Translations under genes and position numbers: made by a program
In this document: in pieces, positions 5,837 to 24,073 of the stretch
Layout: every line of letters begins with the position of its first letter
Position numbering within the stretch: the first letter of the stretch is position 1
The notes under the pieces: generated by a model
Database searches by the model: none
Told to the model about the DNA's origin: nothing
Seen by the model: only the letters and a program-made list of their open reading frames with translations
IMG/VR virus record: IMGVR_UViG_2681813321_000026
Coordinates: 1-24,073 of that record
Length of the DNA: 24,073 nt
DNA from: a virus
Taxonomy: Duplodnaviria; Heunggongvirae; Uroviricota; Caudoviricetes
Reading direction: 5' to 3' (one strand)

Positions 5837-5933
5837 ATAAAAACGTACTACTTCCCTAGTACACATGAGGAGTTGGGTCAGTTGGTTGCCAACCTGAACA
5901 GGCACCTTTAAGCCTGCTTCTGTTCGGGTACCT

Positions 5934-6242: not shown

Positions 6243-6492
6243 ACAAGCCCTTCACCTCCCCCGTGCGCGCTAAGCTTGGATGTGGAAAAAGCTCTGATAG
6301 GTCTGGCCGAAATTCATACGCTTGGATCTTTCCGTCGACAGCTGCAACCAATAACGGCACAAATTCTGGTGAAATCTTGTTCTTGCAGTTCAACCAATCG
6401 CAGACTGTTGACTGGGCCTTTCCGCATCGCTTGGCTAAGGCTTGCTGACTTCCAAGAATCTCAATAGCTTTCTCTATGGCTTTATGTTTCAT
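6205..6492 (-). CDS. Cro-like HTH regulator (Cro/CI-type, YdaS-like), 95 aa
   Basis: Start set to ATG at 6492 (MKHKAIEKAIEILGSQQALAKRCGKAQSTVCDW, HTH) with SD AGGAGA 7 nt upstream; ORF track start at 6543 is an upstream in-frame extension. Divergent from cI. Confidence 0.75.
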   Translation of the reverse strand: MKHKAIEKAIEILGSQQALAKRCGKAQSTVCDWLNCKNKISPEFVPLLVAAVDGKIQAYEFRPDLSELFPHPSLARTGEVKGLYVPELRSDRDAI

Positions 6493-6493
6493 A

Positions 6494-6578
6494 ATCGCAT
6501 CTCCTATTGAACGCATAATAACAACAGGAAAAGCGATATTCAACGTTAAACATAGAATATTTATCGGAAAGCCGATAA
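6494..6578. promoter_or_regulatory. OR-like divergent promoter/operator region between cro-like and cI genes
   Basis: Palindromic 14-mers ATCGCatctCCtAT (6494-6507) and ATCGGaaagCCGAT (6563-6576). Candidate minus-strand cro promoter TTGAAT-N17-TATTAT (-35 at 6543..6538, -10 at 6520..6515). Candidate plus-strand -10 TAGAAT at 6553-6558 with poor -35 (PRM-like). Confidence 0.5.
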
Positions 6579-6611
6579 ACTAGCCAAGATAGAGAGGGGA
6601 GGAAAATCGCA

Positions 6612-7304
6612 ATGACATTTTCAGAACGACTTGATTTAGCTATGCGCAACGCAAAATTTACGCAAGGTAGGCTGGCCAAAGAAGTGGGTATGGCTCAGTC
6701 CAGTGTTAATCAACTACTTAACAAAGCCAACGGTTCCAGAAAAACAGTCGAAATAGCAAAAGTTTTGGGCGTTAACCCGGAATGGCTCGCATCGGGTGTT
6801 GGCCCAATGGAAATCGTGACCTCTGCAGACTCACACCAAATACGTAACATTTCTGAAGATTGGGTTACTGATTCGTATGTCGTGGATGTTTTAGACATCA
6901 GATATAGTTGCGGACCTGGTAGTTATAACTCTGATTTTCCTGATATTGTCAGATCTATAGCGATAGAACCAGGATACGCATCAAGAGTTTTTGGCGGCAG
7001 ACCAGCATCAGCAATCAAAGCAATAAACGCCCACGGCGACAGTATGAAAGGCACAATAGACCCTGAAGACTTGGTATTTGTAGATGTATCAGTTCGCACA
7101 TTTAATGGTGATGGTATATACGCCTTTACATACTCTGGAACATCGCACATCAAAAGACTTCAAAAAATCAAAGATACTCTAACGGTGATATCTGACAACC
7201 CAGCTTACAAGGATTGGGCTATCGAACCGGAAGACTTCGAACAACTTCACATTGACGGAAAAGTAATTGTCAGTTGGCCTATGACACTACACCGTTTTGC
7301 ATAA
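6612..7304 (+). CDS. cI: CI-type prophage repressor (N-terminal XRE HTH, C-terminal S24 LexA-like peptidase domain)
   Basis: 230 aa; HTH QGRLAKEVGMAQSSVNQL; S24 catalytic motifs GDSM and downstream Lys; SD GGAGG upstream of ATG. Confidence 0.9.
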   Translation: MTFSERLDLAMRNAKFTQGRLAKEVGMAQSSVNQLLNKANGSRKTVEIAKVLGVNPEWLASGVGPMEIVTSADSHQIRNISEDWVTDSYVVDVLDIRYSCGPGSYNSDFPDIVRSIAIEPGYASRVFGGRPASAIKAINAHGDSMKGTIDPEDLVFVDVSVRTFNGDGIYAFTYSGTSHIKRLQKIKDTLTVISDNPAYKDWAIEPEDFEQLHIDGKVIVSWPMTLHRFA

Positions 7305-7322
7305 GCAAAAATCATTTAACCC

Positions 7323-7348
7323 GCCCACTCTTAAGTGGGCTTTTTTTT
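7323..7348 (+). terminator. Rho-independent terminator after cI
   Basis: Perfect 7-bp stem gcccact/agtgggc with 4-nt loop ctta followed by T8. Confidence 0.8.
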
Positions 7349-7356
7349 GGGAAAAA

Positions 7357-7398
7357 ATCGATAAACCGATTGACAGGTGAAATCGGTAAACCTATTAT
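7357..7398 (+). promoter_or_regulatory. PL-like promoter with two operator sites
   Basis: TTGACA (7370-7375), 17-nt spacer, TATTAT (7393-7398). Operator-like 14-mers ATCGAtaaaCCGAT (7357-7370, overlapping -35) and ATCGGtaaaCCtAT (7382-7395, overlapping spacer/-10), same family as the OR sites. Confidence 0.7.
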
Positions 7399-7447
7399 CT
7401 TGACATAGGTATCGAACTCACCAAAGCAATTATAGAGGATGAGAAAA

Positions 7448-7858
7448 ATGTCATCGTATATGGGATTACCAACAAATCAGCACGATGCTCTTGAGAATAT
7501 TCAGCTCTTAGTAGGGACTGGTGCACTACTGTATAGCAGCAATAACCCTGAGTTAATTGAACTTGCCAGCTCCATCCTGGCTGTAACTCAAAAATATAGC
7601 CTCACCGCGTCACGTTTATGCAAACAAAATTTAGCTATTAATTCCCAGAATCGGATTCGCACCCAACGCGAAACCTGCGGCTTAACAACCGCCGAACTCG
7701 CTAGGCTGCTCGATCTCGATGAAGAAATTATCATCCAGTGGGAGAGCGGAGAGTACGAACCAACCATCAGCATGCTTATCCCTCTGGCTAATGTTCTTGG
7801 CTGTGATCCAATGTTGTTATTGACTGATGCTTATAAACAAAATCAGGAGGAAGCATAA
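7448..7858 (+). CDS. Hypothetical protein with C-terminal XRE-family HTH (first gene of PL operon)
   Basis: Start set to ATG 7448 (SD GAGGA 8 nt upstream); track start 7439 has no spacing to the SD. C-terminal HTH LTTAELARLLDLDEEIIIQWESGEYEPTISMLIPLANVLG. Confidence 0.6.
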   Translation: MSSYMGLPTNQHDALENIQLLVGTGALLYSSNNPELIELASSILAVTQKYSLTASRLCKQNLAINSQNRIRTQRETCGLTTAELARLLDLDEEIIIQWESGEYEPTISMLIPLANVLGCDPMLLLTDAYKQNQEEA

Positions 7859-7859
7859 G

Positions 7860-8051
7860 ATGAAAATGTTCAAAGGCCTTACCAACGAACCGGAGACAAC
7901 TTTTCATCACATTGCCGTACTGCTTGAAGCGGGGTTAATCATTTCGGCTTCCGGTGATGAAGAATGTGATGAACTTTCGGATGATATCTTTTTACTGGCA
8001 CAACAATACGCCAGAAGCGCATGCGATGCATTTAAGGAGCAAAGAACATGA
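7860..8051 (+). CDS. Small acidic hypothetical protein (63 aa)
   Basis: ATG 7860 preceded by AGGAGG (9-nt spacing); track ORF 7827 is an in-frame upstream extension overlapping the previous gene. Confidence 0.55.
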   Translation: MKMFKGLTNEPETTFHHIAVLLEAGLIISASGDEECDELSDDIFLLAQQYARSACDAFKEQRT

Positions 8052-8239
8052 AAACTCCATTAAATATTCTTGAGGAAGTGGCAGCACAAATAAAAGAGAA
8101 TACATCAATGCTTGAATTTATATTTAAGAATTCGCCCGACTCAGGAGAGACAGACGATTATTTATGTTGCCTCATTCGCTCCATGAATAAAACCTGTGAA
8201 ATGGCTTACGCGTATATCGACACACTGCGCAACGAATAA
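8048..8239 (+). CDS. Small acidic hypothetical protein (63 aa)
   Basis: ATG overlaps stop of previous gene (ATGA coupling). Confidence 0.55.
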   Translation: MKTPLNILEEVAAQIKENTSMLEFIFKNSPDSGETDDYLCCLIRSMNKTCEMAYAYIDTLRNE

Positions 8240-8423
8240 AGAAAACTCAATAAACAATCACCCATAAAAACATAACGGTCTCTGGTCGGGAATTTCCACA
8301 ACCTGAAAATGGTGGTGATGCATGAAAAACAGAAGTGCTTATAAAACCGCATTATTAATGGCTAATGCAGGATACTGGTCAGTTGCAATACTGTTTCTCA
8401 GGAAAGCATACGGGAAATAACAA

Positions 8424-8783
8424 ATGACACATGAACCCATTAATACATATCGTCGCCGTATAGCTGTTGCGGCACTCCATCGAATAAAACGTAAAACAGG
8501 TGGTAATCTGCTTATTGTTGACCTTCCTGATGGGAACATTACGACCATAGAAATAACTGAACAGTTTATAAACCAGTTGCTGTTACGCTTCGAAGGTATT
8601 ACCCGTGGTGAATTGGGCCGGGTGGAGGGTGAAACCGAAATCCACACTGCATACCAGAATGCTATCGGGATTAATCAACATACTGAATACCTGACTGAAA
8701 CCGGAAAGTTAATTATAGACAACCTTTTTCAAGAGATTATTGATTACGCGAAAGAAAAATATATCAGCGGAGGAATTAACTGA
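8424..8783 (+). CDS. Hypothetical protein (119 aa)
   Basis: ORF with ATG start; stop overlaps start of next gene. No motif recognised. Confidence 0.5.
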   Translation: MTHEPINTYRRRIAVAALHRIKRKTGGNLLIVDLPDGNITTIEITEQFINQLLLRFEGITRGELGRVEGETEIHTAYQNAIGINQHTEYLTETGKLIIDNLFQEIIDYAKEKYISGGIN

Positions 8784-8998
8784 TGGCTAATTTATCCCCT
8801 GTATCTGTTGTGCACGAAAAAGTGCAGATCGTTATGACAATTGAAAATGGCCAAGTCACAGGTGTCTGCAAAGTCCGCGATGGCGAGCTGATTGCCAGCA
8901 TGGATACATTCATACGGCTGGCAGAAAGAGCGGGGTATCAGATAACAGCACCTGCTCAGGAGGAAACCGGTGGCATTAACAGCAACACGCATTCCTGA
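8783..8998 (+). CDS. Hypothetical protein (71 aa)
   Basis: ATG 8783 with GGAGGA 8 nt upstream, overlapping stop of previous gene. Confidence 0.55.
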   Translation: MANLSPVSVVHEKVQIVMTIENGQVTGVCKVRDGELIASMDTFIRLAERAGYQITAPAQEETGGINSNTHS

Positions 8999-9184
8999 GC
9001 GGATCCACCGGCAGGCATTGCAGGTCCTGTTGTTGTACCGATGCCGACGGATATTTCCGCATCGGATACAGCGCACCGGATATCTCAGTCTGAAGGTTAA
9101 CCGTCGCTGGCGGCTGTTATCGAAAGACGACGGCCGGAACTGGGAAGTAATGAGTCATGAACGTTATTCGGGAGAAATAAAGAA

Positions 9185-9577
9185 ATGATCGACAACCGCA
9201 CCGCCAGCACCATTGACCAGGCATTACAGAAACATGATACACCCGTCGGCCCGTTATTTTTTGTAACACGCCACGGAAGAACAAAAAAATGCCTCACCCG
9301 AAAAACGGCAATTCGTTACCTGGCATTCTTTATGACCACCCGCGCTTTTGAACGTTCAGGATTCCGACAACGCTATCCTGACAAGCGTTTTATCTTCAAC
9401 AGGAATGAGATATGGAAACGTGGAGAATCAACCACAGAGTATACCCGCGCACACCAGCGAACAATCAGACGACTGCGCAGACTCATCGCCAGGAAACAGT
9501 ATACAGAAAAATGGTTCAGAAAATATGACACATGGAGCGCCGGATATTACGAACTGATGGCAACAAAACCATTCTGA
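9185..9577 (+). CDS. Hypothetical basic protein (130 aa, Arg/Lys-rich C-terminus)
   Basis: ATG 9185 with GGGAGA upstream. No motif recognised. Confidence 0.5.
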   Translation: MIDNRTASTIDQALQKHDTPVGPLFFVTRHGRTKKCLTRKTAIRYLAFFMTTRAFERSGFRQRYPDKRFIFNRNEIWKRGESTTEYTRAHQRTIRRLRRLIARKQYTEKWFRKYDTWSAGYYELMATKPF

Positions 9578-9637
9578 CGTAAACGAAATTAACCATGACG
9601 CAATTAAATAAGGCAAGCCGAATACATCAGGAGGACC

Positions 9638-9826
9638 ATGAACATTTATTTCAGAATAGTTATATCACTGGCAATTATCACATGTATTTACGGATTAATC
9701 GTTCCGGCCCTCATATCAATGAAGGATACGGTAGCAGTGATTTCTGGCTTTGCTCTGGCGTGTCTGACCCCGCCCTGCATTTATGCCATTTATAAGGGTC
9801 TTTCTTTTTCTAAGGATAAAAGATGA
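9638..9826 (+). CDS. Small membrane protein (62 aa, two predicted TM helices)
   Basis: AGGAGGA upstream of ATG; two hydrophobic stretches; stop overlaps start of SPFH gene (ATGA). Confidence 0.55.
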   Translation: MNIYFRIVISLAIITCIYGLIVPALISMKDTVAVISGFALACLTPPCIYAIYKGLSFSKDKR

Positions 9827-10137
9827 AAAAATTACTTTTTGCTTTAGCCCTTGTTCTGCCGACCATTGGCCTTGTCGGTTGCGATCGCGTTGAGCCTGGT
9901 AATGTGGGCATCAAAGTAAACAAACTGGGCGACGATAAAGGCGTCGGTGAAGTGGTCGGTGTTGGGCGCTACTGGACGGGATGGAACACTGAGGTTTACA
10001 TCTTCCCGACCTTTAAGCAGATGAAGACCTACGATGATCCATTCAGTTTCCAGATGAGTGACGGTACAACCATCGGCTATCACATCGGCGTGGCCTACAA
10101 AGTTGATCCATCCAAAGTTACCACAGTCTTTCAGACC

Positions 10138-10167: not shown

Positions 10168-13550
<3,383 letters not shown>

Positions 13551-13576
<26 letters not shown>

Positions 13577-14096
13577 TCAGCAACCCCGGTATCAGTTCAT
13601 CCAGCGCGGCTGCTTTGTTCATGGCTTTGATGATATCCCGTTTCAGGAAATCAACATGTCGGTTTTCCAGTTCCGGAAAACGCCGCTGCACCGACAGGGG
13701 GAGCCCGTCGAGAATACTGGCAATTTCACCTGCGATCCGCGACAACACGAAAGTACAGAATGCGGTTTCCACCACTTCAGCGGAGTCTCTGGCATTCTTC
13801 AGTTCCTGTGCGTCGGCCTGCGCACGCGTAAGTCGATGGCGTTCGTACTCAATAGTTCCTGGCTGGAGATCTGCCTCGCTGGCCTGCCGCAGTTCTTCAA
13901 CCTCCCGGCGCAGCTTTTCGTTCTCAATTTCAGCATCCCTTTCGGCATACCATTTTATGACGGCGGCAGAGTCATAAAGCACCTCATTACCCTTGCCACC
14001 GCCTCGCAGAACGGGCATTCCCTGTTCCTGCCAGTTCTGAATGGTACGGATACTCGCACCGAAAATGTCAGCCAGCTGCTTTTTGTTGACTTCCAT
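13551..14096 (-). CDS. nu1: Terminase small subunit (lambda Nu1, 181 aa)
   Basis: Translation MEVNKKQLADIFGASIRTIQNWQEQGMPVLRGGGKGNEVLYDSAAVIKWYAERDAE... recognised as lambda Nu1; overlaps A start as in lambda. Confidence 0.95.
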
Positions 14097-14283
14097 TGTT
14101 CATTCCACGGCCAAAAACAGAGAAAGGAAACGACAAAGGCCCAAAAGTTCGTTTTCAGCACCTGTCGTTTCCTTTCTTTTCAGGGGGTATTTTAAATAAA
14201 AACATTAAGTTACGACGAAGAAGAACGGAAACGCCTTAAACCGGAAAATTTTCATAAATAGCGAAAACCCGCGAGGTCGCCGC

Positions 14284-14295
14284 CCCGTAGCCTGC
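14284..14295 (-). other. cosN cohesive-end site (12-nt GGGCGGCGACCT on minus strand); cosB lies between here and Nu1
   Basis: Plus strand aggtcgccgccc at 14284-14295 is the reverse complement of the lambda left cohesive end; the following 190 bp toward Nu1 matches the lambda left end from memory with a few substitutions. Confidence 0.85.
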
Positions 14296-14522
14296 CGGAT
14301 CGCCGGAAAGGACCCAATAAATGATAATAATTATCATTTATATAAATACCATCACACATCCCACGTACACCATAAAACCACGACAAATAATCAATTTTGT
14401 CCAAGTCATGCATTAATTGATCTGTGTCAACTTAACGTAAAGACATCTTAAGACAATACAAATCAGCAGCACTGAACACGGAAAAACACAATGTCATCAA
14501 AAAATAAAGCTTCCCAAACCAG

Positions 14523-14663
14523 ATGATTAATCAAATCCATATTGCCCTTGAACGTAAGGGATCGGGTAATTTTTCGGCATGGGTTATTGAAGCCTGCAGG
14601 AGAAGGCTGGCAACAGATGCAAAGCACCTGCGCCCGGCCAGCATGAAAAATAACGAGAAATGA
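14523..14663 (+). CDS. Small hypothetical protein (46 aa) in the cos-proximal right-end region
   Basis: ORF MINQIHIALERKGSGNFSAWVIEACRRRL...; resembles from memory the last small ORF before cos in lambda. An upstream ATG at 14491 is out of frame. Below track size cutoff. Confidence 0.3.
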   Translation: MINQIHIALERKGSGNFSAWVIEACRRRLATDAKHLRPASMKNNEK

Positions 14664-14795
14664 ACGTTCGGTTACAGGAACCGGTAGCTACTGTCTTCTA
14701 ACAATATTTCATCTTCATATCCGGCGAAACAAGACTTTACCCTGCAGGGATGTACTGAATAGCAACAGAGTGATAATTAACTTCTGATAAAATAA

Positions 14796-15122
14796 TCAGG
14801 GTGCTGAAGGACTAAAGATAAATGTTTTCTTCACGCCTTTACGCGGCTTGTCCTTCTCAAATCGCCATTTTGCCATCGCCTTTACAACCTGCTCATCAAA
14901 CAGATGGTGCGGCTCTGAACGGATAAACTCAATTCGGGTGACAGTACCATCAGCACCAATATCAAACTTCACATCAACCCGTCCCTTTATATAATTTGCC
15001 GCGGCATAGGCCGGATATTGTGGTAATGCCTTAACCAACTGTCGAGGCATATCTGTTTTATGTTGCGTACAGCCCATAACCAAAGAAGACAACAAAATAA
15101 TTAACGGAAGATTTCTTTTCAT
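14796..15122 (-). CDS. Lipoprotein consisting of a TonB C-terminal-like domain (about 108 aa)
   Basis: Signal peptide MKRNLPLIILLSSLVMGC with lipobox-like VMGC; mature region PQYPAYAAANYIKGRVDVKFDIGADGTVTRIEFIRSEPHHLFDEQVVKAMAKWRFEKDKP aligns closely with E. coli TonB C-terminal domain (PQYPARAQALRIEGQVKVKFDV...AMRRWRYEPGKP) from memory. Alternative upstream ATG at 15137 has no SD. Confidence 0.75.
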   Translation of the reverse strand: MKRNLPLIILLSSLVMGCTQHKTDMPRQLVKALPQYPAYAAANYIKGRVDVKFDIGADGTVTRIEFIRSEPHHLFDEQVVKAMAKWRFEKDKPRKGVKKTFIFSPSAP

Positions 15123-15138
15123 TTTTATTCCCGGCATA

Positions 15139-15158
15139 GATAAGAATAAGTCTTATTC
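15139..15158. promoter_or_regulatory. AT-rich perfect palindrome (GAATAAG-T-CTTATTC preceded by GATAA) overlapping the putative promoter of the TonB-like gene
   Basis: 7-1-7 perfect inverted repeat at 15144-15158; overlaps a minus-strand TAGAAT -10-like hexamer; partial resemblance to Fur-box GATAAT hexamers. Confidence 0.3.
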
Positions 15159-15761
15159 TAACAATGCAGCCCTGTCGGTCATCAATCCTCTGCTTAATGG
15201 CAATGACAATTATCCGACTTAAATCACAAATCAGACACATGACATAACAGAGTTTGCGAGGTAACACATCGTCCGGTTTCTTCCACCATCGCACCGGACC
15301 AGCGACCATGAGGGGACAACGCCGCGCTCCGTTTACGCGGTAAACCCCGGTGTGTATCGTTTTTGATTATCCCCGCACACTCTCGCAGAGGAGTCTCCCT
15401 GTCGGGCTGCGGTCTCTGTTAATGCAGGAATACGGCGACAATACCGCGCATGGATAATAAGGTCGCTCAACACACTGGCTGTAATTCAGCGGATACCATT
15501 CGGCATTTATCAGTATTCATCACACACTCAACGGTGAATTCTTCATGCGTGGCATTCACTTCATATGTTCGTGAATAACATTCAGTGCATTTACCTCTGA
15601 ACACCTCTTCAATCACTCTTCCAGGAAGAACCCTTTTCGTTTCTCAGCGCCTGAGCGCTTTGTACTACCTTGCTGATACGGGCGTTTTTTTAAATTGCGC
15701 CCTTAAGACAGTGATCTACTTAACCAATGGATCTCTCCTGTTGGAAAAGACCCTATTCCTG

Positions 15762-15804
15762 CCCCAACACCCAATCCCCCCTTACCCCCCTTACCCTCTT
15801 CCCC
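15762..15804 (-). other. Second copy of the C-rich/G-rich potential G-quadruplex tract
   Basis: Identical to 5794-5836. Confidence 0.4.
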
Positions 15805-15901
15805 ATAAAAACGTACTACTTCCCTAGTACACATGAGGAGTTGGGTCAGTTGGTTGCCAACCTGAACAGGCACCTTTAAGCCTGCTTCTGTTCGGGTACC
15901 T

Positions 15902-16210
15902 TTAAACCCGAAACAGTGAGGAGCGCGATTGCGATCCAGCCAGGGGAGGTTCGGCTGTATACCCCTGTAAAGCTCTGCCCTGATTTCTTACAAACAGGCG
16001 GAGCCTTGTGTTTGCTTCGTGCCTTGCTCTGTTCTCCTTGCGGAATGAAACAGGCTCAGCGTCAAAAGTGATTTCGTATACCTCCGCATATTTCAGGGCA
16101 ACCTTCCGTCTCAGTGACGGAGGCAGCCCCTGTAACTGCTGCTGAATCCACTCTTCGTCTGCCTGGCAGTACCTAGATGGCATCTCTGTCTGAACGTAAT
16201 TCTGGGACAT
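15902..16210 (-). CDS. Hypothetical protein (102 aa), copy 2
   Basis: Identical to 5934-6242. Confidence 0.55.
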   Translation of the reverse strand: MSQNYVQTEMPSRYCQADEEWIQQQLQGLPPSLRRKVALKYAEVYEITFDAEPVSFRKENRARHEANTRLRLFVRNQGRALQGYTAEPPLAGSQSRSSLFRV

Positions 16211-16460
16211 ACAAGCCCTTCACCTCCCCCGTGCGCGCTAAGCTTGGATGTGGAAAAAGCTCTGATAGGTCTGGCCGAAATTCATACGCTTGGATCTTTC
16301 CGTCGACAGCTGCAACCAATAACGGCACAAATTCTGGTGAAATCTTGTTCTTGCAGTTCAACCAATCGCAGACTGTTGACTGGGCCTTTCCGCATCGCTT
16401 GGCTAAGGCTTGCTGACTTCCAAGAATCTCAATAGCTTTCTCTATGGCTTTATGTTTCAT
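16173..16460 (-). CDS. Cro-like HTH regulator, copy 2
   Basis: Identical to 6205-6492. Confidence 0.75.
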   Translation of the reverse strand: MKHKAIEKAIEILGSQQALAKRCGKAQSTVCDWLNCKNKISPEFVPLLVAAVDGKIQAYEFRPDLSELFPHPSLARTGEVKGLYVPELRSDRDAI

Positions 16461-16461
16461 A

Positions 16462-16546
16462 ATCGCATCTCCTATTGAACGCATAATAACAACAGGAAAA
16501 GCGATATTCAACGTTAAACATAGAATATTTATCGGAAAGCCGATAA
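16462..16546. promoter_or_regulatory. OR-like promoter/operator region, copy 2
   Basis: Identical to 6494-6578. Confidence 0.5.
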
Positions 16547-16579
16547 ACTAGCCAAGATAGAGAGGGGAGGAAAATCGCA

Positions 16580-17272
16580 ATGACATTTTCAGAACGACTT
16601 GATTTAGCTATGCGCAACGCAAAATTTACGCAAGGTAGGCTGGCCAAAGAAGTGGGTATGGCTCAGTCCAGTGTTAATCAACTACTTAACAAAGCCAACG
16701 GTTCCAGAAAAACAGTCGAAATAGCAAAAGTTTTGGGCGTTAACCCGGAATGGCTCGCATCGGGTGTTGGCCCAATGGAAATCGTGACCTCTGCAGACTC
16801 ACACCAAATACGTAACATTTCTGAAGATTGGGTTACTGATTCGTATGTCGTGGATGTTTTAGACATCAGATATAGTTGCGGACCTGGTAGTTATAACTCT
16901 GATTTTCCTGATATTGTCAGATCTATAGCGATAGAACCAGGATACGCATCAAGAGTTTTTGGCGGCAGACCAGCATCAGCAATCAAAGCAATAAACGCCC
17001 ACGGCGACAGTATGAAAGGCACAATAGACCCTGAAGACTTGGTATTTGTAGATGTATCAGTTCGCACATTTAATGGTGATGGTATATACGCCTTTACATA
17101 CTCTGGAACATCGCACATCAAAAGACTTCAAAAAATCAAAGATACTCTAACGGTGATATCTGACAACCCAGCTTACAAGGATTGGGCTATCGAACCGGAA
17201 GACTTCGAACAACTTCACATTGACGGAAAAGTAATTGTCAGTTGGCCTATGACACTACACCGTTTTGCATAA
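16580..17272 (+). CDS. cI: CI-type prophage repressor, copy 2
   Basis: Identical to 6612-7304. Confidence 0.9.
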   Translation: MTFSERLDLAMRNAKFTQGRLAKEVGMAQSSVNQLLNKANGSRKTVEIAKVLGVNPEWLASGVGPMEIVTSADSHQIRNISEDWVTDSYVVDVLDIRYSCGPGSYNSDFPDIVRSIAIEPGYASRVFGGRPASAIKAINAHGDSMKGTIDPEDLVFVDVSVRTFNGDGIYAFTYSGTSHIKRLQKIKDTLTVISDNPAYKDWAIEPEDFEQLHIDGKVIVSWPMTLHRFA

Positions 17273-17290
17273 GCAAAAATCATTTAACCC

Positions 17291-17316
17291 GCCCACTCTT
17301 AAGTGGGCTTTTTTTT
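17291..17316 (+). terminator. Rho-independent terminator after cI, copy 2
   Basis: Identical to 7323-7348. Confidence 0.8.
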
Positions 17317-17324
17317 GGGAAAAA

Positions 17325-17366
17325 ATCGATAAACCGATTGACAGGTGAAATCGGTAAACCTATTAT
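17325..17366 (+). promoter_or_regulatory. PL-like promoter with operators, copy 2
   Basis: Identical to 7357-7398. Confidence 0.7.
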
Positions 17367-17415
17367 CTTGACATAGGTATCGAACTCACCAAAGCAATTA
17401 TAGAGGATGAGAAAA

Positions 17416-17826
17416 ATGTCATCGTATATGGGATTACCAACAAATCAGCACGATGCTCTTGAGAATATTCAGCTCTTAGTAGGGACTGGTGCACTACTGT
17501 ATAGCAGCAATAACCCTGAGTTAATTGAACTTGCCAGCTCCATCCTGGCTGTAACTCAAAAATATAGCCTCACCGCGTCACGTTTATGCAAACAAAATTT
17601 AGCTATTAATTCCCAGAATCGGATTCGCACCCAACGCGAAACCTGCGGCTTAACAACCGCCGAACTCGCTAGGCTGCTCGATCTCGATGAAGAAATTATC
17701 ATCCAGTGGGAGAGCGGAGAGTACGAACCAACCATCAGCATGCTTATCCCTCTGGCTAATGTTCTTGGCTGTGATCCAATGTTGTTATTGACTGATGCTT
17801 ATAAACAAAATCAGGAGGAAGCATAA
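17416..17826 (+). CDS. Hypothetical protein with C-terminal XRE HTH, copy 2
   Basis: Identical to 7448-7858. Confidence 0.6.
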   Translation: MSSYMGLPTNQHDALENIQLLVGTGALLYSSNNPELIELASSILAVTQKYSLTASRLCKQNLAINSQNRIRTQRETCGLTTAELARLLDLDEEIIIQWESGEYEPTISMLIPLANVLGCDPMLLLTDAYKQNQEEA

Positions 17827-17827
17827 G

Positions 17828-18019
17828 ATGAAAATGTTCAAAGGCCTTACCAACGAACCGGAGACAACTTTTCATCACATTGCCGTACTGCTTGAAGCGG
17901 GGTTAATCATTTCGGCTTCCGGTGATGAAGAATGTGATGAACTTTCGGATGATATCTTTTTACTGGCACAACAATACGCCAGAAGCGCATGCGATGCATT
18001 TAAGGAGCAAAGAACATGA
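17828..18019 (+). CDS. Small acidic hypothetical protein (63 aa), copy 2
   Basis: Identical to 7860-8051. Confidence 0.55.
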   Translation: MKMFKGLTNEPETTFHHIAVLLEAGLIISASGDEECDELSDDIFLLAQQYARSACDAFKEQRT

Positions 18020-18207
18020 AAACTCCATTAAATATTCTTGAGGAAGTGGCAGCACAAATAAAAGAGAATACATCAATGCTTGAATTTATATTTAAGAATT
18101 CGCCCGACTCAGGAGAGACAGACGATTATTTATGTTGCCTCATTCGCTCCATGAATAAAACCTGTGAAATGGCTTACGCGTATATCGACACACTGCGCAA
18201 CGAATAA
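18016..18207 (+). CDS. Small acidic hypothetical protein (63 aa), copy 2
   Basis: Identical to 8048-8239. Confidence 0.55.
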   Translation: MKTPLNILEEVAAQIKENTSMLEFIFKNSPDSGETDDYLCCLIRSMNKTCEMAYAYIDTLRNE

Positions 18208-18391
18208 AGAAAACTCAATAAACAATCACCCATAAAAACATAACGGTCTCTGGTCGGGAATTTCCACAACCTGAAAATGGTGGTGATGCATGAAAAACAG
18301 AAGTGCTTATAAAACCGCATTATTAATGGCTAATGCAGGATACTGGTCAGTTGCAATACTGTTTCTCAGGAAAGCATACGGGAAATAACAA

Positions 18392-18751
18392 ATGACACAT
18401 GAACCCATTAATACATATCGTCGCCGTATAGCTGTTGCGGCACTCCATCGAATAAAACGTAAAACAGGTGGTAATCTGCTTATTGTTGACCTTCCTGATG
18501 GGAACATTACGACCATAGAAATAACTGAACAGTTTATAAACCAGTTGCTGTTACGCTTCGAAGGTATTACCCGTGGTGAATTGGGCCGGGTGGAGGGTGA
18601 AACCGAAATCCACACTGCATACCAGAATGCTATCGGGATTAATCAACATACTGAATACCTGACTGAAACCGGAAAGTTAATTATAGACAACCTTTTTCAA
18701 GAGATTATTGATTACGCGAAAGAAAAATATATCAGCGGAGGAATTAACTGA
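18392..18751 (+). CDS. Hypothetical protein (119 aa), copy 2
   Basis: Identical to 8424-8783. Confidence 0.5.
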   Translation: MTHEPINTYRRRIAVAALHRIKRKTGGNLLIVDLPDGNITTIEITEQFINQLLLRFEGITRGELGRVEGETEIHTAYQNAIGINQHTEYLTETGKLIIDNLFQEIIDYAKEKYISGGIN

Positions 18752-18966
18752 TGGCTAATTTATCCCCTGTATCTGTTGTGCACGAAAAAGTGCAGATCGT
18801 TATGACAATTGAAAATGGCCAAGTCACAGGTGTCTGCAAAGTCCGCGATGGCGAGCTGATTGCCAGCATGGATACATTCATACGGCTGGCAGAAAGAGCG
18901 GGGTATCAGATAACAGCACCTGCTCAGGAGGAAACCGGTGGCATTAACAGCAACACGCATTCCTGA
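18751..18966 (+). CDS. Hypothetical protein (71 aa), copy 2
   Basis: Identical to 8783-8998. Confidence 0.55.
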   Translation: MANLSPVSVVHEKVQIVMTIENGQVTGVCKVRDGELIASMDTFIRLAERAGYQITAPAQEETGGINSNTHS

Positions 18967-19152
18967 GCGGATCCACCGGCAGGCATTGCAGGTCCTGTTG
19001 TTGTACCGATGCCGACGGATATTTCCGCATCGGATACAGCGCACCGGATATCTCAGTCTGAAGGTTAACCGTCGCTGGCGGCTGTTATCGAAAGACGACG
19101 GCCGGAACTGGGAAGTAATGAGTCATGAACGTTATTCGGGAGAAATAAAGAA

Positions 19153-19545
19153 ATGATCGACAACCGCACCGCCAGCACCATTGACCAGGCATTACAGAAA
19201 CATGATACACCCGTCGGCCCGTTATTTTTTGTAACACGCCACGGAAGAACAAAAAAATGCCTCACCCGAAAAACGGCAATTCGTTACCTGGCATTCTTTA
19301 TGACCACCCGCGCTTTTGAACGTTCAGGATTCCGACAACGCTATCCTGACAAGCGTTTTATCTTCAACAGGAATGAGATATGGAAACGTGGAGAATCAAC
19401 CACAGAGTATACCCGCGCACACCAGCGAACAATCAGACGACTGCGCAGACTCATCGCCAGGAAACAGTATACAGAAAAATGGTTCAGAAAATATGACACA
19501 TGGAGCGCCGGATATTACGAACTGATGGCAACAAAACCATTCTGA
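19153..19545 (+). CDS. Hypothetical basic protein (130 aa), copy 2
   Basis: Identical to 9185-9577. Confidence 0.5.
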   Translation: MIDNRTASTIDQALQKHDTPVGPLFFVTRHGRTKKCLTRKTAIRYLAFFMTTRAFERSGFRQRYPDKRFIFNRNEIWKRGESTTEYTRAHQRTIRRLRRLIARKQYTEKWFRKYDTWSAGYYELMATKPF

Positions 19546-19605
19546 CGTAAACGAAATTAACCATGACGCAATTAAATAAGGCAAGCCGAATACATCAGGA
19601 GGACC

Positions 19606-19794
19606 ATGAACATTTATTTCAGAATAGTTATATCACTGGCAATTATCACATGTATTTACGGATTAATCGTTCCGGCCCTCATATCAATGAAGGATACGGT
19701 AGCAGTGATTTCTGGCTTTGCTCTGGCGTGTCTGACCCCGCCCTGCATTTATGCCATTTATAAGGGTCTTTCTTTTTCTAAGGATAAAAGATGA
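19606..19794 (+). CDS. Small two-TM membrane protein (62 aa), copy 2
   Basis: Identical to 9638-9826. Confidence 0.55.
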   Translation: MNIYFRIVISLAIITCIYGLIVPALISMKDTVAVISGFALACLTPPCIYAIYKGLSFSKDKR

Positions 19795-20618
19795 AAAAAT
19801 TACTTTTTGCTTTAGCCCTTGTTCTGCCGACCATTGGCCTTGTCGGTTGCGATCGCGTTGAGCCTGGTAATGTGGGCATCAAAGTAAACAAACTGGGCGA
19901 CGATAAAGGCGTCGGTGAAGTGGTCGGTGTTGGGCGCTACTGGACGGGATGGAACACTGAGGTTTACATCTTCCCGACCTTTAAGCAGATGAAGACCTAC
20001 GATGATCCATTCAGTTTCCAGATGAGTGACGGTACAACCATCGGCTATCACATCGGCGTGGCCTACAAAGTTGATCCATCCAAAGTTACCACAGTCTTTC
20101 AGACCTACCGCAAAGGCGTGGACGACATTACCGACACCGACCTGCGCCAGAAGATAGCCGACGCACTCAACCGACTGGCCAGCAAAATGACCACCGACAA
20201 ATTTATCGACGGCGGCAAGTCTGAGCTGCTGGATGCAGCTCTTAAAGACATTCAGGAAGAAATGACGCCCATCGGTATTCAGGTAATGAGCCTCTCATAT
20301 GTGGGTAAGCCGGAGTACCCACCTACTGTTATCGACAGCATTAATGCCAAAGTCACGGCGAACCAGAAAACCCTGCAACGCGAGCAGGAAGTAAAACAGC
20401 GCGAAGCGGAAGCCAACATGTTGCGCGCGGAAGCTGCCGGACAGGCAGATGCGATTCGCACAAAAGCCCAGGCCGAAGCCGATGCTATTCGTTTACGCGG
20501 TGAAGCTCTGCGCCAGAACCCCGGTGTTATGGAGCTGGAAGCCATCAACAAGTGGAACGGTACACTGCCGCAATACATGACCAGCGGTGCCAACACACCA
20601 TTTATTCAGGTTAAGTAA
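19791..20618 (+). CDS. SPFH/band-7 (HflC/stomatin-like) domain lipoprotein, 275 aa
   Basis: Lipoprotein signal MKKLLFALALVLPTIGLVGC (lipobox LVGC); SPFH-like core and C-terminal Ala/Glu/Gln/Arg-rich coiled-coil segment (REQEVKQREAEANMLRAEAAGQADAIRTKAQAEADAIRLRGEAL) typical of HflC/QmcA-type proteins; SD AAGGA upstream. Confidence 0.8.
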   Translation: MKKLLFALALVLPTIGLVGCDRVEPGNVGIKVNKLGDDKGVGEVVGVGRYWTGWNTEVYIFPTFKQMKTYDDPFSFQMSDGTTIGYHIGVAYKVDPSKVTTVFQTYRKGVDDITDTDLRQKIADALNRLASKMTTDKFIDGGKSELLDAALKDIQEEMTPIGIQVMSLSYVGKPEYPPTVIDSINAKVTANQKTLQREQEVKQREAEANMLRAEAAGQADAIRTKAQAEADAIRLRGEALRQNPGVMELEAINKWNGTLPQYMTSGANTPFIQVK

Positions 20619-22786: not shown

Positions 22787-24073
22787 ATGAGTAACGCATC
22801 ATACCCGACAGGCGTTGAAAACCATGGAGGATCACTCCGTATATGGTTTCACTATAATGGCAAACGTGTCAGAGAAAACCTCGGTGTTCCTGACACAGCC
22901 AAAAACCGGAAGATCGCTGGTGAACTTCGCACTTCCGTTTGTTTTGCAATCAGAATGGGGAGTTTCGACTACGCCGCGCAGTTCCCTAATTCCCCTAACC
23001 TGAAACACTTTGGTCTGGGAAAAAGAGAGATAACCGTTAAGGCACTTTCGGAAAAATGGTTGGACCTTAAGAAAATTGAGATTTGTGCGAATGCACTTAA
23101 TCGTTACCAGTCAGTAATTAAAAACATGTTGCCTATGTTGGGTGAGAAAAAACTGGTTTCATCCATAACAAAAGAGGATTTACTTTTCGCAAGGAGAGAT
23201 TTGTTGACCGGTTACCAAAAGCTTTCTAATGGAAAGATTTCTTCCATAAAAGGGCGCTCAGTGGTCACAGTAAACTACTATATGACAACCATAGCTGGAA
23301 TGTTTCAATTTGCAACAGATAATGGTTATACCTCAGGAAACCCATTTAACGGTCTGGCACCCTTAAAAAAGTCCAAGGTAAAACCAGATCCTCTCACCCG
23401 TGACGAATTTATTCGTTTTATTGAAGCTTGCCGTCATCAACAAACAAAAAACCTGTGGATTCTCGCTGTATACACGGGTATTCGTCACGGGGAGCTGGTA
23501 TCGCTGGCATGGGAAGATATAGATCTTAAAGCAAGGACTATAACCATCCGTAGGAATTATACAAAACTTGGCGAATTCACTCCACCAAAAACCGATGCTG
23601 GCACCGGAAGGACAATTCATCTGGTTCAACCAGCTATTGATGCTCTTAAAAGTCAGGCGGAAATGACCATGCTTGGAAAGCAACATTCTGTAGAGGTAAA
23701 GCAGAGGGAATATGGGAGAAGTACTGTGCATAAATGCACTTTTGTTTTTAGTCCTCAGGTAATAAAACAGCGGCAGTTTTCCGGACCGCACTATAAGGTT
23801 GACTCCATCAGGGAGTCATGGACAAGTATCTTAAAACGCGCAGGTCTGAGACACAGAAAATCGTACCAATCCAGGCATACTTATGCATGCTGGTCACTTG
23901 CCGCTGGAGCTAATCCTAGTTTTATCGCAAGCCAGATGGGCCACACAAACGCACAAATGGTATTCAATGTTTACGGAGCATGGATGAAAGACAACAATCA
24001 CGAACAGATAGAACTCCTTAACAAAAGACTATCTGAAAGTGTCCCATGTATGCCCCATAAGAAAGCTGGGTAA
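22787..24073 (+). CDS. int: Tyrosine-type site-specific integrase (428 aa)
   Basis: SD GGGAGG upstream; C-terminal catalytic region with RHGEL, SRHTYACW, HTNAQMVFNVYGAW (catalytic Tyr) typical of tyrosine recombinases. Last prophage gene before the expected attachment site beyond the window. Confidence 0.9.
   Translation: MSNASYPTGVENHGGSLRIWFHYNGKRVRENLGVPDTAKNRKIAGELRTSVCFAIRMGSFDYAAQFPNSPNLKHFGLGKREITVKALSEKWLDLKKIEICANALNRYQSVIKNMLPMLGEKKLVSSITKEDLLFARRDLLTGYQKLSNGKISSIKGRSVVTVNYYMTTIAGMFQFATDNGYTSGNPFNGLAPLKKSKVKPDPLTRDEFIRFIEACRHQQTKNLWILAVYTGIRHGELVSLAWEDIDLKARTITIRRNYTKLGEFTPPKTDAGTGRTIHLVQPAIDALKSQAEMTMLGKQHSVEVKQREYGRSTVHKCTFVFSPQVIKQRQFSGPHYKVDSIRESWTSILKRAGLRHRKSYQSRHTYACWSLAAGANPSFIASQMGHTNAQMVFNVYGAWMKDNNHEQIELLNKRLSESVPCMPHKKAG

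What the first reader, a model, noticed from the sequence alone, without database searches (positions are those of the whole stretch)
14796..15158. Stand-alone TonB C-terminal-domain lipoprotein next to cos, with a palindromic site over its promoter
The mature protein is essentially only a TonB C-terminal domain (strong similarity to E. coli TonB residues around PQYPARAQA...RRWRYEPGKP) fused to a lipoprotein signal. It sits in the cos-proximal moron position where lambda carries bor. Such a protein could titrate TonB boxes of outer-membrane receptors (FhuA, BtuB, FepA) and block TonB-dependent phages and colicins, or alter iron uptake. A perfect 7-1-7 AT-rich palindrome (15144-15158) with partial Fur-box character overlaps the -10-like TAGAAT, hinting at regulated expression.
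Basis: partly seen in the sequence, partly recalled or inferred. Interest (0 to 1): 0.7.

Follow-up and report, generated by a model that had tools for sequence, protein, structure and literature searches.

The report
Prophage lipoprotein made of TonB's tip
A prophage gene next to the DNA-packaging site encodes a small outer-membrane-type lipoprotein that is only the receptor-binding tip of the bacterial energy-coupling protein TonB; it probably acts as an unpowered TonB decoy, is found in about 30% of complete E. coli genomes, and has not been studied in any paper I could find.

Summary
The ORF is 14796-15137 (-), and the likely true start is 15122, giving 108 aa. It encodes a lipobox signal peptide (Cys18), an 8-residue tether and a TonB C-terminal domain. 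Pfam TonB_C scores E=2.7e-15. The protein aligns without gaps to E. coli TonB 153-231 at 40.5% identity. The AF2 model superposes on TonB from the BtuB and FhuA complexes at 1.0-1.2 A.

The palindrome is real: 7-1-7 as reported, extending to 8-1-8 at 15143-15159. It overlaps an extended -10, TGtTAGAAT.

The family occurs in 1616 of 5426 complete E. coli genomes, always annotated 'TonB family protein'. It is under purifying selection (dN/dS 0.10-0.19). In five unrelated phage types it sits between the lysis cassette and the terminase genes.

New here: in 10 of 17 homologous loci, the best Fur-box match of the whole locus lies just upstream of this gene (15-17 of 19 in several). The window allele keeps a degenerate 13/19 version at the same place.

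Best reading (untested, about 0.5): an iron-responsive, outer-membrane-tethered TonB decoy that occupies Ton boxes and blocks TonB-dependent phages and colicins. No paper on it was found.

In this window the gene sits in a rearranged, defective prophage.

The parts
14796..15122 (-). CDS of the TonB_C lipoprotein precursor (108 aa plus stop).
   Evidence: dN/dS 0.10-0.19 between alleles
15072..15122 (-). Signal peptide, residues 1-17 (MKRNLPLIILLSSLVMG), ending in the lipobox
   Evidence: PROSITE-type lipobox pattern met in the window protein and in four diverse homologs. The Cys is invariant among the lipoprotein homologs.
15069..15071 (-). Codon of Cys18, the predicted lipid-modified first residue of the mature protein. 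Residue +2 is Thr, not Asp, which predicts sorting to the outer membrane.
   Evidence: The +2 sorting rule is from established knowledge; localisation itself was not tested.
14811..15047 (-). TonB C-terminal domain, residues 26-104, equivalent to E. coli TonB 153-231, including the edge strand beta3 (model residues 94-103)
15128..15132 (-). Shine-Dalgarno-like GGGAA, 5 nt upstream of the ATG at 15122
   Evidence: read from the sequence
15155..15163 (-). Extended -10-like element TGtTAGAAT
   Evidence: An (A/C)AGAAT preceded by TGT is kept in phage 21.
15177..15182 (-). Weak -35-like hexamer ATGACC, 16-nt spacer
   Evidence: 9 of 12 overall; the number of such sites in the region is no higher than in shuffles
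15143..15159 (.). Perfect 8-1-8 palindrome AGAATAAG-T-CTTATTCT, overlapping the -10
   Evidence: Present in 78 fetched loci (77 of the 80 close IMG/VR loci plus phage Lys8385Vzw). It lies in a 29-nt block that is invariant against the P0003 allele, although dS is 0.39 in the CDS. Absent from the phage-21 allele.
15139..15157 (.). Degenerate Fur-box-like 19-mer GATAAGAATAAGTCTTATT. It matches 13 of 19 positions of GATAATGATAATCATTATC and keeps the hexamer order forward-forward-x-reverse.
14523..14663 (+). Convergent small gene, DUF3950 (YlcI/YnfO family). It is a constant neighbour in the E. coli loci.
14274..14285 (-). cosN, the 12-nt lambda cohesive-end sequence
15610..15611 (.). Recombination joint. 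The gene's upstream region is fused to DNA just downstream of the cII-like gene; the lysis, Q and replication genes are missing.

Best explanation
The gene is a phage accessory gene (a 'moron'). Its product is exported and lipid-modified at Cys18. [quoted passage not shown]

The protein has the Ton-box-binding fold and the exposed beta3 edge strand. It lacks TonB's transmembrane anchor and proline-rich rod, so it cannot connect to the ExbB-ExbD motor. It can therefore occupy Ton boxes by beta-strand addition without delivering energy. The Ton boxes could be those of transporters such as FhuA, FepA, Cir and BtuB, and perhaps those of incoming group B colicins.

The expected result is a competitive block of TonB-dependent entry. 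That would cover phages of the T1 and phi80 type, group B colicins and several microcins. The expected cost is some loss of siderophore and B12 uptake.

Expression is inferred to have two inputs. The first is its own extended -10 promoter, overlapped by an AT-rich operator that is a canonical Fur box in other lineages and a degenerate one here. That would switch the gene on in low iron, when the transporters that invaders exploit are most abundant. The second, in intact phages, is the Q-antiterminated late transcript, because the gene lies between Rz and cos on the late strand. In this window that second input has been deleted.

Shown here: domain identity, fold, lipobox, purifying selection, synteny, and Fur-box association in the family. 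Inferred: outer-membrane location, Ton-box binding, inhibition, and Fur control of this particular allele.
For: Domain and fold:
- Pfam TonB_C E=2.7e-15; TIGR01352.
- Gapless 79-residue alignment to TonB 153-231, 40.5% identity.
- AF2 model with pLDDT 96-99 over the domain.
- Foldseek top hits are TonB C-terminal domains, including the chains from the BtuB:TonB (2gsk_B, rmsd 1.0 A, TM 0.92) and FhuA:TonB (2grx_C, rmsd 1.2 A) complexes.
- Structural and functional TonB residues are kept: Q162, Y163, P164, F180, G186, F202, W213, F230; Y215 becomes F.
[quoted passage not shown] The model keeps beta3 (residues 94-103), and the chain ends 5 residues later.

Lipoprotein:
- Lipobox and Cys are conserved from E. 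coli to Sodalis, and +2 is never Asp.

Not a TonB:
- No transmembrane anchor and no Pro-rich spacer (108 aa).

A real, selected gene:
- dN/dS 0.10-0.19.
- Present in 1616 of 5426 complete E. coli genomes.

Phage accessory gene in a fixed slot:
- It lies between the lysis cassette and the terminase, on the late strand. This holds in lambda-like, HK97-like and phage 21 genomes, a Klebsiella phage, a Sodalis prophage and an uncultured phage.

Iron link:
- The top Fur-consensus match of the whole locus lies within 100 nt upstream of the gene in 10 of 17 loci.
- Scores: Sodalis 17/19; Erwinia typographi 16/19; Klebsiella sp. R390 16/19, with a perfect TGATAAT-T-ATTATCA; Raoultella 15/19; IMG/VR L104 and L105 15/19.
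- The window has 13/19 at the same place. Only 2% of 100-nt windows of this sequence reach that score.

Precedent:
- T5 Llp and the Cor proteins are phage lipoproteins of the inner leaflet of the outer membrane. They bind the periplasmic face of FhuA, and acylation matters for complex formation (bioRxiv 10.64898/2026.03.26.714494).
- From my own knowledge, not retrievable here: TonB C-terminal fragments exported to the periplasm inhibit FhuA- and FecA-dependent transport and phi80 and colicin M sensitivity (Howard et al., J Bacteriol 2001).
Against: - No experiment or paper addresses this protein, and PADLOC has no model for it.
- Residues next to the Ton box in TonB differ: Q160 becomes L, R158 becomes K, R166 becomes Y. 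Beta3 is more basic (VKKTFIFS against IVVNILFK), so partner specificity could differ.
- Raoultella and Klebsiella sp. R390 carry chromosomal, non-prophage orthologs with the strongest type of Fur box. It is odd for a host to induce a general inhibitor of iron uptake exactly when iron is scarce. This favours either a selective target or a non-inhibitory role.
- The window's Fur match is weak: 13/19, and 8/14 on the 7-1-7 model.
- The same consensus count gives 15/19 at a cos-adjacent AT-rich palindrome (14317-14341) that is probably unrelated to Fur.
- The phage-21-type allele, which is the majority in E. coli, has no Fur-like site (10/19).
- The promoter call is not better than chance.
Confidence: 0.5

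Rival explanations
1. It has an iron-starvation function that does not inhibit TonB. The tethered TonB-like domain would bind some other partner by beta-strand addition, such as a periplasmic or outer-membrane protein or an imported substrate. It would then help the cell, or the phage, under low iron rather than blocking transport.
For: Chromosomal, non-prophage orthologs in Raoultella and Klebsiella sp. R390 carry near-perfect Fur boxes. TonB-type C-terminal domains can bind substrates directly, for example FusB with ferredoxin (PDB 9hi3 among the fold hits). Residues flanking the Ton-box site differ from TonB.
Against: No candidate partner is apparent. The neighbours in the chromosomal loci (a lacZ-like glycosidase, a LacI-type regulator, a small periplasmic protein and another lipoprotein, judged from their sequences) have no obvious iron link. 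The fold and beta3 edge are those used for Ton boxes. The repeated capture by phages into the post-lysis slot fits a defence or exclusion role better.
Confidence: 0.2
2. It inhibits the TonB system by pairing with the C-terminal domain of the host's own TonB (a heterodimer). This would trap TonB at the outer membrane instead of occupying transporter Ton boxes.
For: Isolated TonB C-terminal fragments crystallise as dimers, some through beta3 (1u07 and 1ihr are among the hits; different dimer interfaces are noted in PMC7014051). The phage domain is 40% identical to TonB's.
Against: TonB is far less abundant than its transporters (own knowledge), but the decoy would have to find it at the outer membrane. 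Nothing in the sequence distinguishes this from Ton-box binding. The physiological relevance of the dimers is disputed (bioRxiv 10.1101/2022.09.26.509584).
Confidence: 0.12
3. It is a lysis accessory or spanin-type protein, as the PHROG label ('Rz-like spanin', phrog_1267) suggests. It would act on the outer membrane or peptidoglycan at the end of the lytic cycle.
For: Full-length match to phrog_1267 (E=2.9e-42). It is an outer-membrane-type lipoprotein. The gene follows the lysis cassette on the late strand.
Against: Phage 21, JLK-2012, the E. coli contig L102 and the Sodalis prophage already have their own Rz-type spanin upstream. An Rz1-type o-spanin is also present in phage 21 (annotated), L102 (Pfam Rz1) and Sodalis (a lipobox ORF embedded in the Rz-like gene, by inspection). 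The gene is separate and 150-650 bp downstream, not embedded in or abutting an i-spanin gene. The mature part is a folded TonB_C domain with no second cysteine, unlike the short proline-rich o-spanins. Non-phage chromosomal orthologs with Fur boxes exist. The label most likely spread from mis-annotated members.
Confidence: 0.05
4. It is a non-functional scrap of a tonB gene picked up by a phage ('partial tonB-like' in older annotations).
For: Older records call it 'Partial tonB-like membrane protein' or 'TonB fragment'. Several database alleles are frameshifted near the 3' end (P0012, P0013, P0018-P0021).
Against: dN/dS is 0.10-0.19 at dS up to 2. A dedicated lipoprotein signal that TonB lacks is conserved across genera. 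The domain boundaries are precise. The family is found across Enterobacterales and uncultured phages.
Confidence: 0.03

Closest known systems
TonB C-terminal domain of E. coli TonB (PF03544; PDB 1u07, 1xx3, 2gsk, 2grx)
   Same: Same fold (rmsd 1.0-1.4 A) and 40.5% identity without gaps over TonB 153-231. The YP motif, the aromatic core residues and the beta3 edge strand that pairs with Ton boxes are all kept.
   Different: No N-terminal transmembrane helix and no proline-rich periplasm-spanning rod, so no coupling to ExbB-ExbD. It is anchored by a lipid at the opposite membrane. Q160 becomes L, R158 becomes K, R166 becomes Y. The chain ends just after beta3.
Phage superinfection-exclusion lipoproteins Llp (T5) and Cor (phi80, HK022, N15, T1)
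   Same: Small phage-encoded lipoproteins of the inner leaflet of the outer membrane. They act on the periplasmic face of a TonB-dependent transporter and thereby block phages, colicin M and ferrichrome uptake.
   Different: No sequence or fold relationship; Pfam finds only TonB_C and TonB_2. Llp and Cor are FhuA-specific and work by remodelling the plug and loops. A TonB-domain decoy would be generic for all Ton boxes. Cor lies next to the tail genes (own knowledge), whereas this gene lies between the lysis cassette and cos.
Engineered periplasmic TonB C-terminal fragments (dominant-negative inhibitors)
   Same: The same domain, present in the periplasm without the energy-coupling N-terminus. 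These fragments were reported to inhibit FhuA- and FecA-dependent transport and phi80 and colicin M sensitivity (own knowledge: Howard et al. 2001; not retrievable).
   Different: Those are laboratory constructs, soluble and over-expressed. This one is natural, lipid-tethered, under selection and carried by phages.
Lambda Bor / Iss lipoprotein
   Same: An accessory lipoprotein gene in the Rz-to-cos interval of lambdoid phages.
   Different: Unrelated sequence and opposite strand. Phage 21 has both genes side by side. Bor is expressed in lysogens and linked to serum resistance (own knowledge).
Fur-repressed iron-uptake genes (tonB, exbBD, fepA, fhuA, cir)
   Same: A Fur-consensus operator overlaps the promoter in many family members.
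   Different: The product is predicted to oppose rather than serve TonB-dependent transport. The operator of the window allele is degenerate (13/19).

Membership tests
TonB_C domain family (PF03544 / TIGR01352) | Profile match above the curated threshold | tested here: met
   57 bits against 24.6; 56.9 against 27.1
TonB_C domain family (PF03544 / TIGR01352) | [quoted passage not shown] | tested here: met
   AF2 pLDDT above 95 in the domain. Foldseek hits to 1u07, 2gsk and 2grx at rmsd 1.0-1.4 A. Y36-P37 correspond to Y163-P164.
Functional TonB energy transducers | N-terminal transmembrane anchor that couples to ExbB-ExbD | tested here: not met
   The N-terminus is a cleavable lipoprotein signal. 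The matches to full-length TonB models cover only their last ~80 residues and fall far below the cut-offs (74 against 315 bits).
Functional TonB energy transducers | Proline-rich periplasm-spanning spacer | tested here: not met
   Only 8 residues lie between Cys18 and the start of the domain.
Bacterial lipoproteins (Lgt/LspA/Lnt pathway) | Signal peptide ending in a lipobox with an invariant Cys | tested here: met
   The pattern [^DERK]{6}[LIVMFWSTAG]{2}[LIVMFYSTAGCQ][AGS]C is met, with Cys18. It is conserved in the homologs.
Bacterial lipoproteins (Lgt/LspA/Lnt pathway) | Actual acylation and outer-membrane sorting | not testable with these tools
   +2 is Thr, Ser, Ala or Val in all members seen and never Asp. 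This is inference from the +2 rule.
Llp/Cor superinfection-exclusion lipoproteins | Homology to Llp/Cor | tested here: not met
   At E up to 1, Pfam lists only TonB_C and TonB_2. The fold hits are TonB, not the Llp type.
Llp/Cor superinfection-exclusion lipoproteins | Blocks infection through a TonB-dependent transporter | not testable with these tools
   Needs plating assays.
o-spanins (Rz1-like), as labelled by phrog_1267 | Gene embedded in, overlapping or abutting an i-spanin gene; short proline-rich mature peptide with a cysteine for intermolecular disulfides | tested here: not met
   It is a separate gene downstream of complete Rz/Rz1-type spanin pairs (annotated in phage 21; a Pfam Rz1 gene in L102; by inspection in Sodalis). 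The mature part is a folded 90-aa domain with no further Cys.
Fur regulon | Fur box overlapping the promoter | tested here: inconclusive
   The window has 13/19 (2% of windows reach this). The homologs have 14-17/19, the best site in their locus. Consensus counting also gives 15/19 at a cos-adjacent palindrome.
Fur regulon | Fur binding and iron-dependent expression | not testable with these tools
   Needs EMSA or footprinting and reporter assays.
Known anti-phage defence systems (PADLOC) | Match to a PADLOC model | tested here: not met
   0 families at E up to 1.

The most novel reading that the evidence does not exclude
A widespread, iron-regulated 'TonB mimic' could be a previously unrecognised class of envelope defence. 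It would be a lipid-tethered copy of TonB's receptor-binding domain, carried by lambdoid and other temperate phages and also fixed in some enterobacterial chromosomes. It would uncouple all TonB-dependent gates from the energy source exactly when Fur derepression makes those gates abundant. One 90-residue protein would then protect against every TonB-dependent phage, colicin and microcin.
Probability: 0.33. Interest if true: 0.8.

Novelty: new variant of a known kind. Interest (0 to 1): 0.6.

Why it matters
TonB-dependent transporters are the main entry points for siderophores and vitamin B12. They also admit many phages, group B colicins, microcins and siderophore-antibiotic conjugates.

A natural, genetically mobile inhibitor of the TonB-transporter contact would have several consequences:
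- It would explain part of the unexplained phage and colicin tolerance of lysogens. About 30% of complete E. coli genomes carry the gene, including O157:H7, O111 and ST131 strains.
- It could affect susceptibility to 'Trojan-horse' antibiotics.
- It would provide a minimal natural tool for probing how TonB engages Ton boxes.
- It would add a mechanism to phage superinfection exclusion that is generic across receptors rather than specific to one.

The Fur-box association found here gives a direct, cheap experimental handle. If the function turns out not to be inhibitory, the family is still an uncharacterised iron-starvation lipoprotein of Enterobacterales.

Tried and rejected
- The start codon at 15137 was rejected in favour of 15122 (no Shine-Dalgarno motif; GTG in relatives; RefSeq uses 108 aa).
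- The PHROG label 'Rz-like spanin' was rejected on gene arrangement and protein architecture.
- 'Takes the place of bor' was rejected, because phage 21 has both genes.
- The repeat finder with min_length 10 did not report the palindrome. It was verified with a script instead.
- PADLOC gave no hit. Rfam at E up to 1 over 14000-16000 gave no hit. BFVD viral structures gave no significant hit, so the TonB_C fold is essentially absent from that viral set.
- Nine literature searches found no study of a phage TonB-domain lipoprotein. The phage 21 genome announcement does not mention TonB. Howard et al. 2001 could not be retrieved.
- The word-indexed protein search returned only E. coli alleles. The exhaustive HMMER search was needed to find the wider short-lipoprotein class.
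- The first pattern scans with a broad alignment failed for lack of conserved stretches. The first successful viral scan returned only near-identical loci.
- The genome scan is limited by its patterns, so the 16 loci found are a lower bound.
- Fur scoring used mismatch counts to the 19-bp consensus, not a curated weight matrix. The 15/19 match at the cos-adjacent palindrome shows the method's false-positive risk for AT-rich palindromes.
Full report
OBSERVATION

The ORF 14796-15137 on the minus strand exists (113 aa). Its probable start is the second ATG, at 15122, giving 108 aa (MKRNL...). Three things favour it:
- It is preceded by GGGAA at a 5-nt spacing.
- The upstream ATG is GTG in close relatives.
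- RefSeq annotates the 108-aa form, and that exact protein occurs on 569 public contigs.

It extends to a perfect 8-1-8 at 15143-15159. It overlaps TAGAAT at 15155-15160 (-), which has an upstream TG (extended -10) and a poor -35.

Neither feature is significant alone. The window has 4 perfect 8-arm palindromes against 1.4 +/- 1.3 expected. Promoter-like sites in the region are no more frequent than in shuffles.

cosN, identical to the lambda 12-mer, lies at 14274-14285, 511 bp past the stop codon.

THE PROTEIN

Pfam TonB_C scores E=2.7e-15, well above its cut-off. NCBIfam gives the TonB C-terminal domain model, plus sub-threshold matches to only the last ~80 positions of the full-length TonB models.

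Against PDB sequences, residues 26-104 align without a gap to E. coli TonB 153-231 (E about 1e-16), with 32 of 79 identical.

An AlphaFold2 model built on 21 family sequences has pLDDT 96-99 across the domain. Its best structural matches are all TonB C-terminal domains. They include the TonB chains of the BtuB:TonB and FhuA:TonB complexes, at rmsd 1.0 and 1.2 A with target TM 0.92.

Residues kept from TonB are Q162, Y163, P164, F180, G186, F202, W213 and F230, with Y215 changed to F. Residues that differ are R158 to K, Q160 to L and R166 to Y. From memory, Q160L and Q160K are the classical tonB suppressors of Ton-box mutations, so that position tolerates this change.

The edge strand beta3 is where the FhuA Ton box pairs in the crystal structure (PMC11658791). 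It is present as residues 94-103, and the chain ends five residues later.

The N-terminus satisfies a PROSITE-type lipobox pattern with Cys18 and Thr at +2. The same holds for phage 21, Klebsiella phage, Klebsiella sp. and Sodalis homologs, and the Cys is invariant in the lipoprotein subfamily. No member seen has Asp at +2, so the +2 rule predicts outer-membrane sorting. That is an inference.

There is no transmembrane anchor and no proline-rich spacer. The protein therefore cannot be an energy transducer.

SURROUNDINGS IN THIS WINDOW

The window is a lambdoid prophage read backwards.
- Left part: Q antiterminator (1643-2044), primase, helicase, a cII-like gene, a YdaS/Cro-like gene and an S24-type repressor.
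- Middle: lambda-type portal, terminase A (11651-13576), Nu1 (13551-14096) and cos. The convergent DUF3950 gene (14523-14663) and the TonB_C gene follow.
- Right part: the same immunity region again, then an SPFH protein, an anti-repressor and an integrase (22787-24073).

A 4495-bp segment is present twice with 100% identity, at 5643-10137 and at 15611-20105.

The joint at 15610/15611 puts the TonB_C gene about 780 bp downstream of the cII-like gene and removes the lysis, Q and replication genes. No complete E. coli genome in the collection spans it. An IMG/VR contig does span it, at 99.98% identity over 10,984 bp (L012), so this joint is real and shared.

The other joint, 10137/10138, fuses a truncated portal gene to a truncated SPFH gene. 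It is not in L012, where the portal gene continues normally. Two deletions in a tandem double lysogen would explain the arrangement. So would integration of a 9968-bp circle by homologous recombination, or an assembly error. I did not resolve this.

NATURAL CONTEXT

In intact relatives the gene lies between the lysis cassette and the packaging genes, on the late strand. This holds for:
- an E. coli lambda-like prophage: holin, lysozyme, spanin, gene, DUF3950, Nu1, A;
- HK97-like JLK-2012 and the P0003 contig, with HNH, TerS and TerL downstream;
- phage 21, where the curators named it 'TonB C-terminal domain protein' and where bor is also present on the opposite strand;
- a Klebsiella phage;
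- a Sodalis prophage, where my inspection of the ORFs shows holin-, lysozyme-, Rz- and Rz1-like genes upstream and Nu1/gpA-like terminase genes downstream (lysozyme and large terminase confirmed by tblastn);
- an uncultured phage with yet another terminase type (L105).

So the gene is not the counterpart of bor.

By established lambda biology (own knowledge), a co-directional gene in this interval is transcribed by the Q-modified late transcript, which runs across cos.

DISTRIBUTION AND SELECTION

The gene occurs in 1616 of 5426 complete E. coli genomes. About 415 carry the window type (at least 90% nt identity, palindrome included) and 1201 carry the phage-21 type (60-80%). Every hit listed is annotated 'TonB family protein', apart from one partial match.

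Only 15 of 50,697 phage records have it. The BFVD library of viral structures has no significant match to the fold.

An exhaustive HMMER search found a distinct class of 107-133-aa lipoproteins with the same architecture. Pattern scans placed members in Raoultella, Klebsiella, Erwinia and Sodalis genomes and in uncultured phages.

dN/dS between E. coli alleles is 0.10-0.19, with dS up to about 2. This is a selected protein, not a tonB scrap. Some phage-21-type copies are frameshifted near the 3' end, as expected in decaying prophages.

REGULATORY REGION AND THE FUR LEAD

I counted matches to the 19-bp Fur consensus GATAATGATAATCATTATC over whole loci.

| Locus | Match | Position relative to the start codon |
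|---|---|---|
| Window | 13/19 | -35 (15139-15157), overlapping the palindrome |
| Sodalis prophage | 17/19 | -30 |
| Erwinia typographi | 16/19 | -30 |
| Klebsiella sp. R390 | 16/19 | -28 (contains a perfect TGATAAT-T-ATTATCA) |
| Three chromosomal Raoultella loci | 15/19 | -28 to -29 |
| Second R. planticola locus | 14/19 | -34 |
| IMG/VR L104 and L105 | 15/19 | -65 to -66 |
| IMG/VR L107 and L108 | 13/19 and 14/19 | about -48 |

(the L107/L108 position is re-based on the corrected starts used.)

In the window, 9 of 48,110 positions score at least 13, and 2% of 100-nt windows reach that score.

In 10 of 17 loci the 100 nt upstream of the gene is the best, or essentially the only, Fur-scoring window of a 6-12-kb locus. 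These loci represent at least five separate lineages, both chromosomal and phage-borne.

The phage-21 type, P0006, L106 and one Erwinia locus have no such site (10-12 of 19).

The window site keeps the hexamer order forward-forward-x-reverse (GATAAG AATAAG T CTTATT). By my count from the sequences it matches only 8/14 of the 7-1-7 model.

The 29 nt from -44 to -16, which include the -10 and the palindrome, are invariant between the window and the P0003 allele. Twelve differences fall elsewhere in the 110 nt upstream, and dS in the coding region is 0.39.

One caution. The same count gives 15/19 at an AT-rich palindrome beside cos (14317-14341). From memory, lambda itself has that palindrome, and it is unlikely to be a Fur site.

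My reading is that Fur control is very likely a family trait (about 0.85). It is uncertain for this allele (about 0.4). The perfect palindrome may be a diverged Fur operator or the site of another regulator.

MECHANISM

The best-supported model is an unpowered, outer-membrane-tethered TonB decoy that occupies Ton boxes.

Support:
- The fold and the binding edge are those TonB uses on Ton boxes.
- The protein lacks everything needed for energy coupling.
- The 8-residue tether would hold it at the periplasmic mouth of the transporters.
- The family is linked to iron starvation.
- Llp and Cor set a precedent as phage lipoproteins acting on the periplasmic face of FhuA.
- From memory, exported TonB C-terminal fragments have dominant-negative effects.

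Against:
- The protein is entirely untested.
- Residues around the Ton-box site are altered.
- Some bacteria keep a Fur-derepressed chromosomal copy. This sits awkwardly with a general inhibitor of iron uptake. It suggests either selectivity, for example for colicin Ton boxes, or a different partner.

The rivals are listed with probabilities in the Rival explanations section.

COMPARISON AND NOVELTY

By every test run here, the protein belongs to the TonB_C domain family and looks like a lipoprotein. It fails the defining features of TonB transducers, Llp/Cor, o-spanins and PADLOC systems.

The gene is annotated in public records, and the phage 21 curators recognised the domain. I found no paper on its function.

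What this analysis adds:
- the lipoprotein-only architecture as a coherent family across Enterobacterales and their phages;
- its fixed post-lysis slot;
- its prevalence;
- purifying selection;
- the Fur-box association.

I rate it a new variant of known kinds: TonB-domain proteins, and phage envelope-exclusion lipoproteins. Interest is 0.6. The idea is cheap to test and would matter for phage, colicin and siderophore-antibiotic susceptibility. The function is still inference.

Noticed in passing
window 5643-10137 and 15611-20105: A perfect 4495-bp direct repeat carries the whole immunity region (cII-like, YdaS/Cro-like and S24 repressor genes, an HTH protein, and the start of an SPFH gene). 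It flanks a 5473-bp segment (truncated portal, terminase, cos, DUF3950, TonB_C gene). The right joint, 15610/15611, is shared with IMG/VR contig IMGVR_UViG_2537561991_000013. The left joint, 10137/10138, is not; there the portal gene continues normally. Possible causes are a tandem lysogen with two deletions, Campbell-type integration of a 9968-bp circle, or misassembly.
   Followed up: partly
window 14317-14341: An AT-rich palindrome, ATAAATGATAATAATTATCATTTAT, lies 32-56 nt from cosN on the right-end side. It is the best Fur-consensus match in the window (15/19). It sits about 180 nt upstream of the DUF3950 gene. It is probably a conserved cos-region feature of lambda rather than a Fur site, but this was not checked.
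   Followed up: no
window 14523-14663 (+): A small DUF3950 (YlcI/YnfO family) gene is convergent with the TonB_C gene. It is its constant neighbour in E. coli lambda-like and HK97-like loci. Its function is unknown.
   Followed up: no
PHROG phrog_1267 (matched by window 14796-15137): This PHROG family matches the TonB_C lipoprotein over its full length (E=2.9e-42) but is labelled 'Rz-like spanin'. The label looks like an annotation error that will spread to phage genome annotations.
   Followed up: partly
L086, L088-L091 (Raoultella spp., Klebsiella sp. R390): Chromosomal, non-prophage orthologs have near-perfect Fur boxes. By inspection of the translated ORFs, they sit beside a beta-galactosidase-like gene, a LacI-type regulator, a small Spy/CpxP-like periplasmic protein and a glycine-rich lipoprotein. 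So the family is not only phage cargo.
   Followed up: partly
proteins P0010, P0012, P0013, P0018-P0021 (phage-21-type alleles): Several database alleles are frameshifted just before or within the beta3 strand and run into unrelated sequence. This suggests decay of the gene in some cryptic prophages.
   Followed up: no
window 15058-15309 (-): An 83-aa ORF overlaps the promoter and the start of the TonB_C gene. It is annotated as a hypothetical protein in phage JLK-2012 (gp71). It is probably spurious.
   Followed up: no
window residue L33 (codon 15024-15026, -): The residue aligned with TonB Q160 is Leu in the window allele, Tyr in the phage-21 type, and varies elsewhere. From memory, Q160L and Q160K are the classical tonB suppressors of Ton-box mutations. 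The family may therefore have relaxed or altered Ton-box specificity.
   Followed up: no
L107 (IMGVR_UViG_2791355159_000002) 1375-1734: In this uncultured phage the homolog is not in the post-lysis slot. It lies near an S24-type repressor gene, which shows that the gene moves as an independent cassette.
   Followed up: no
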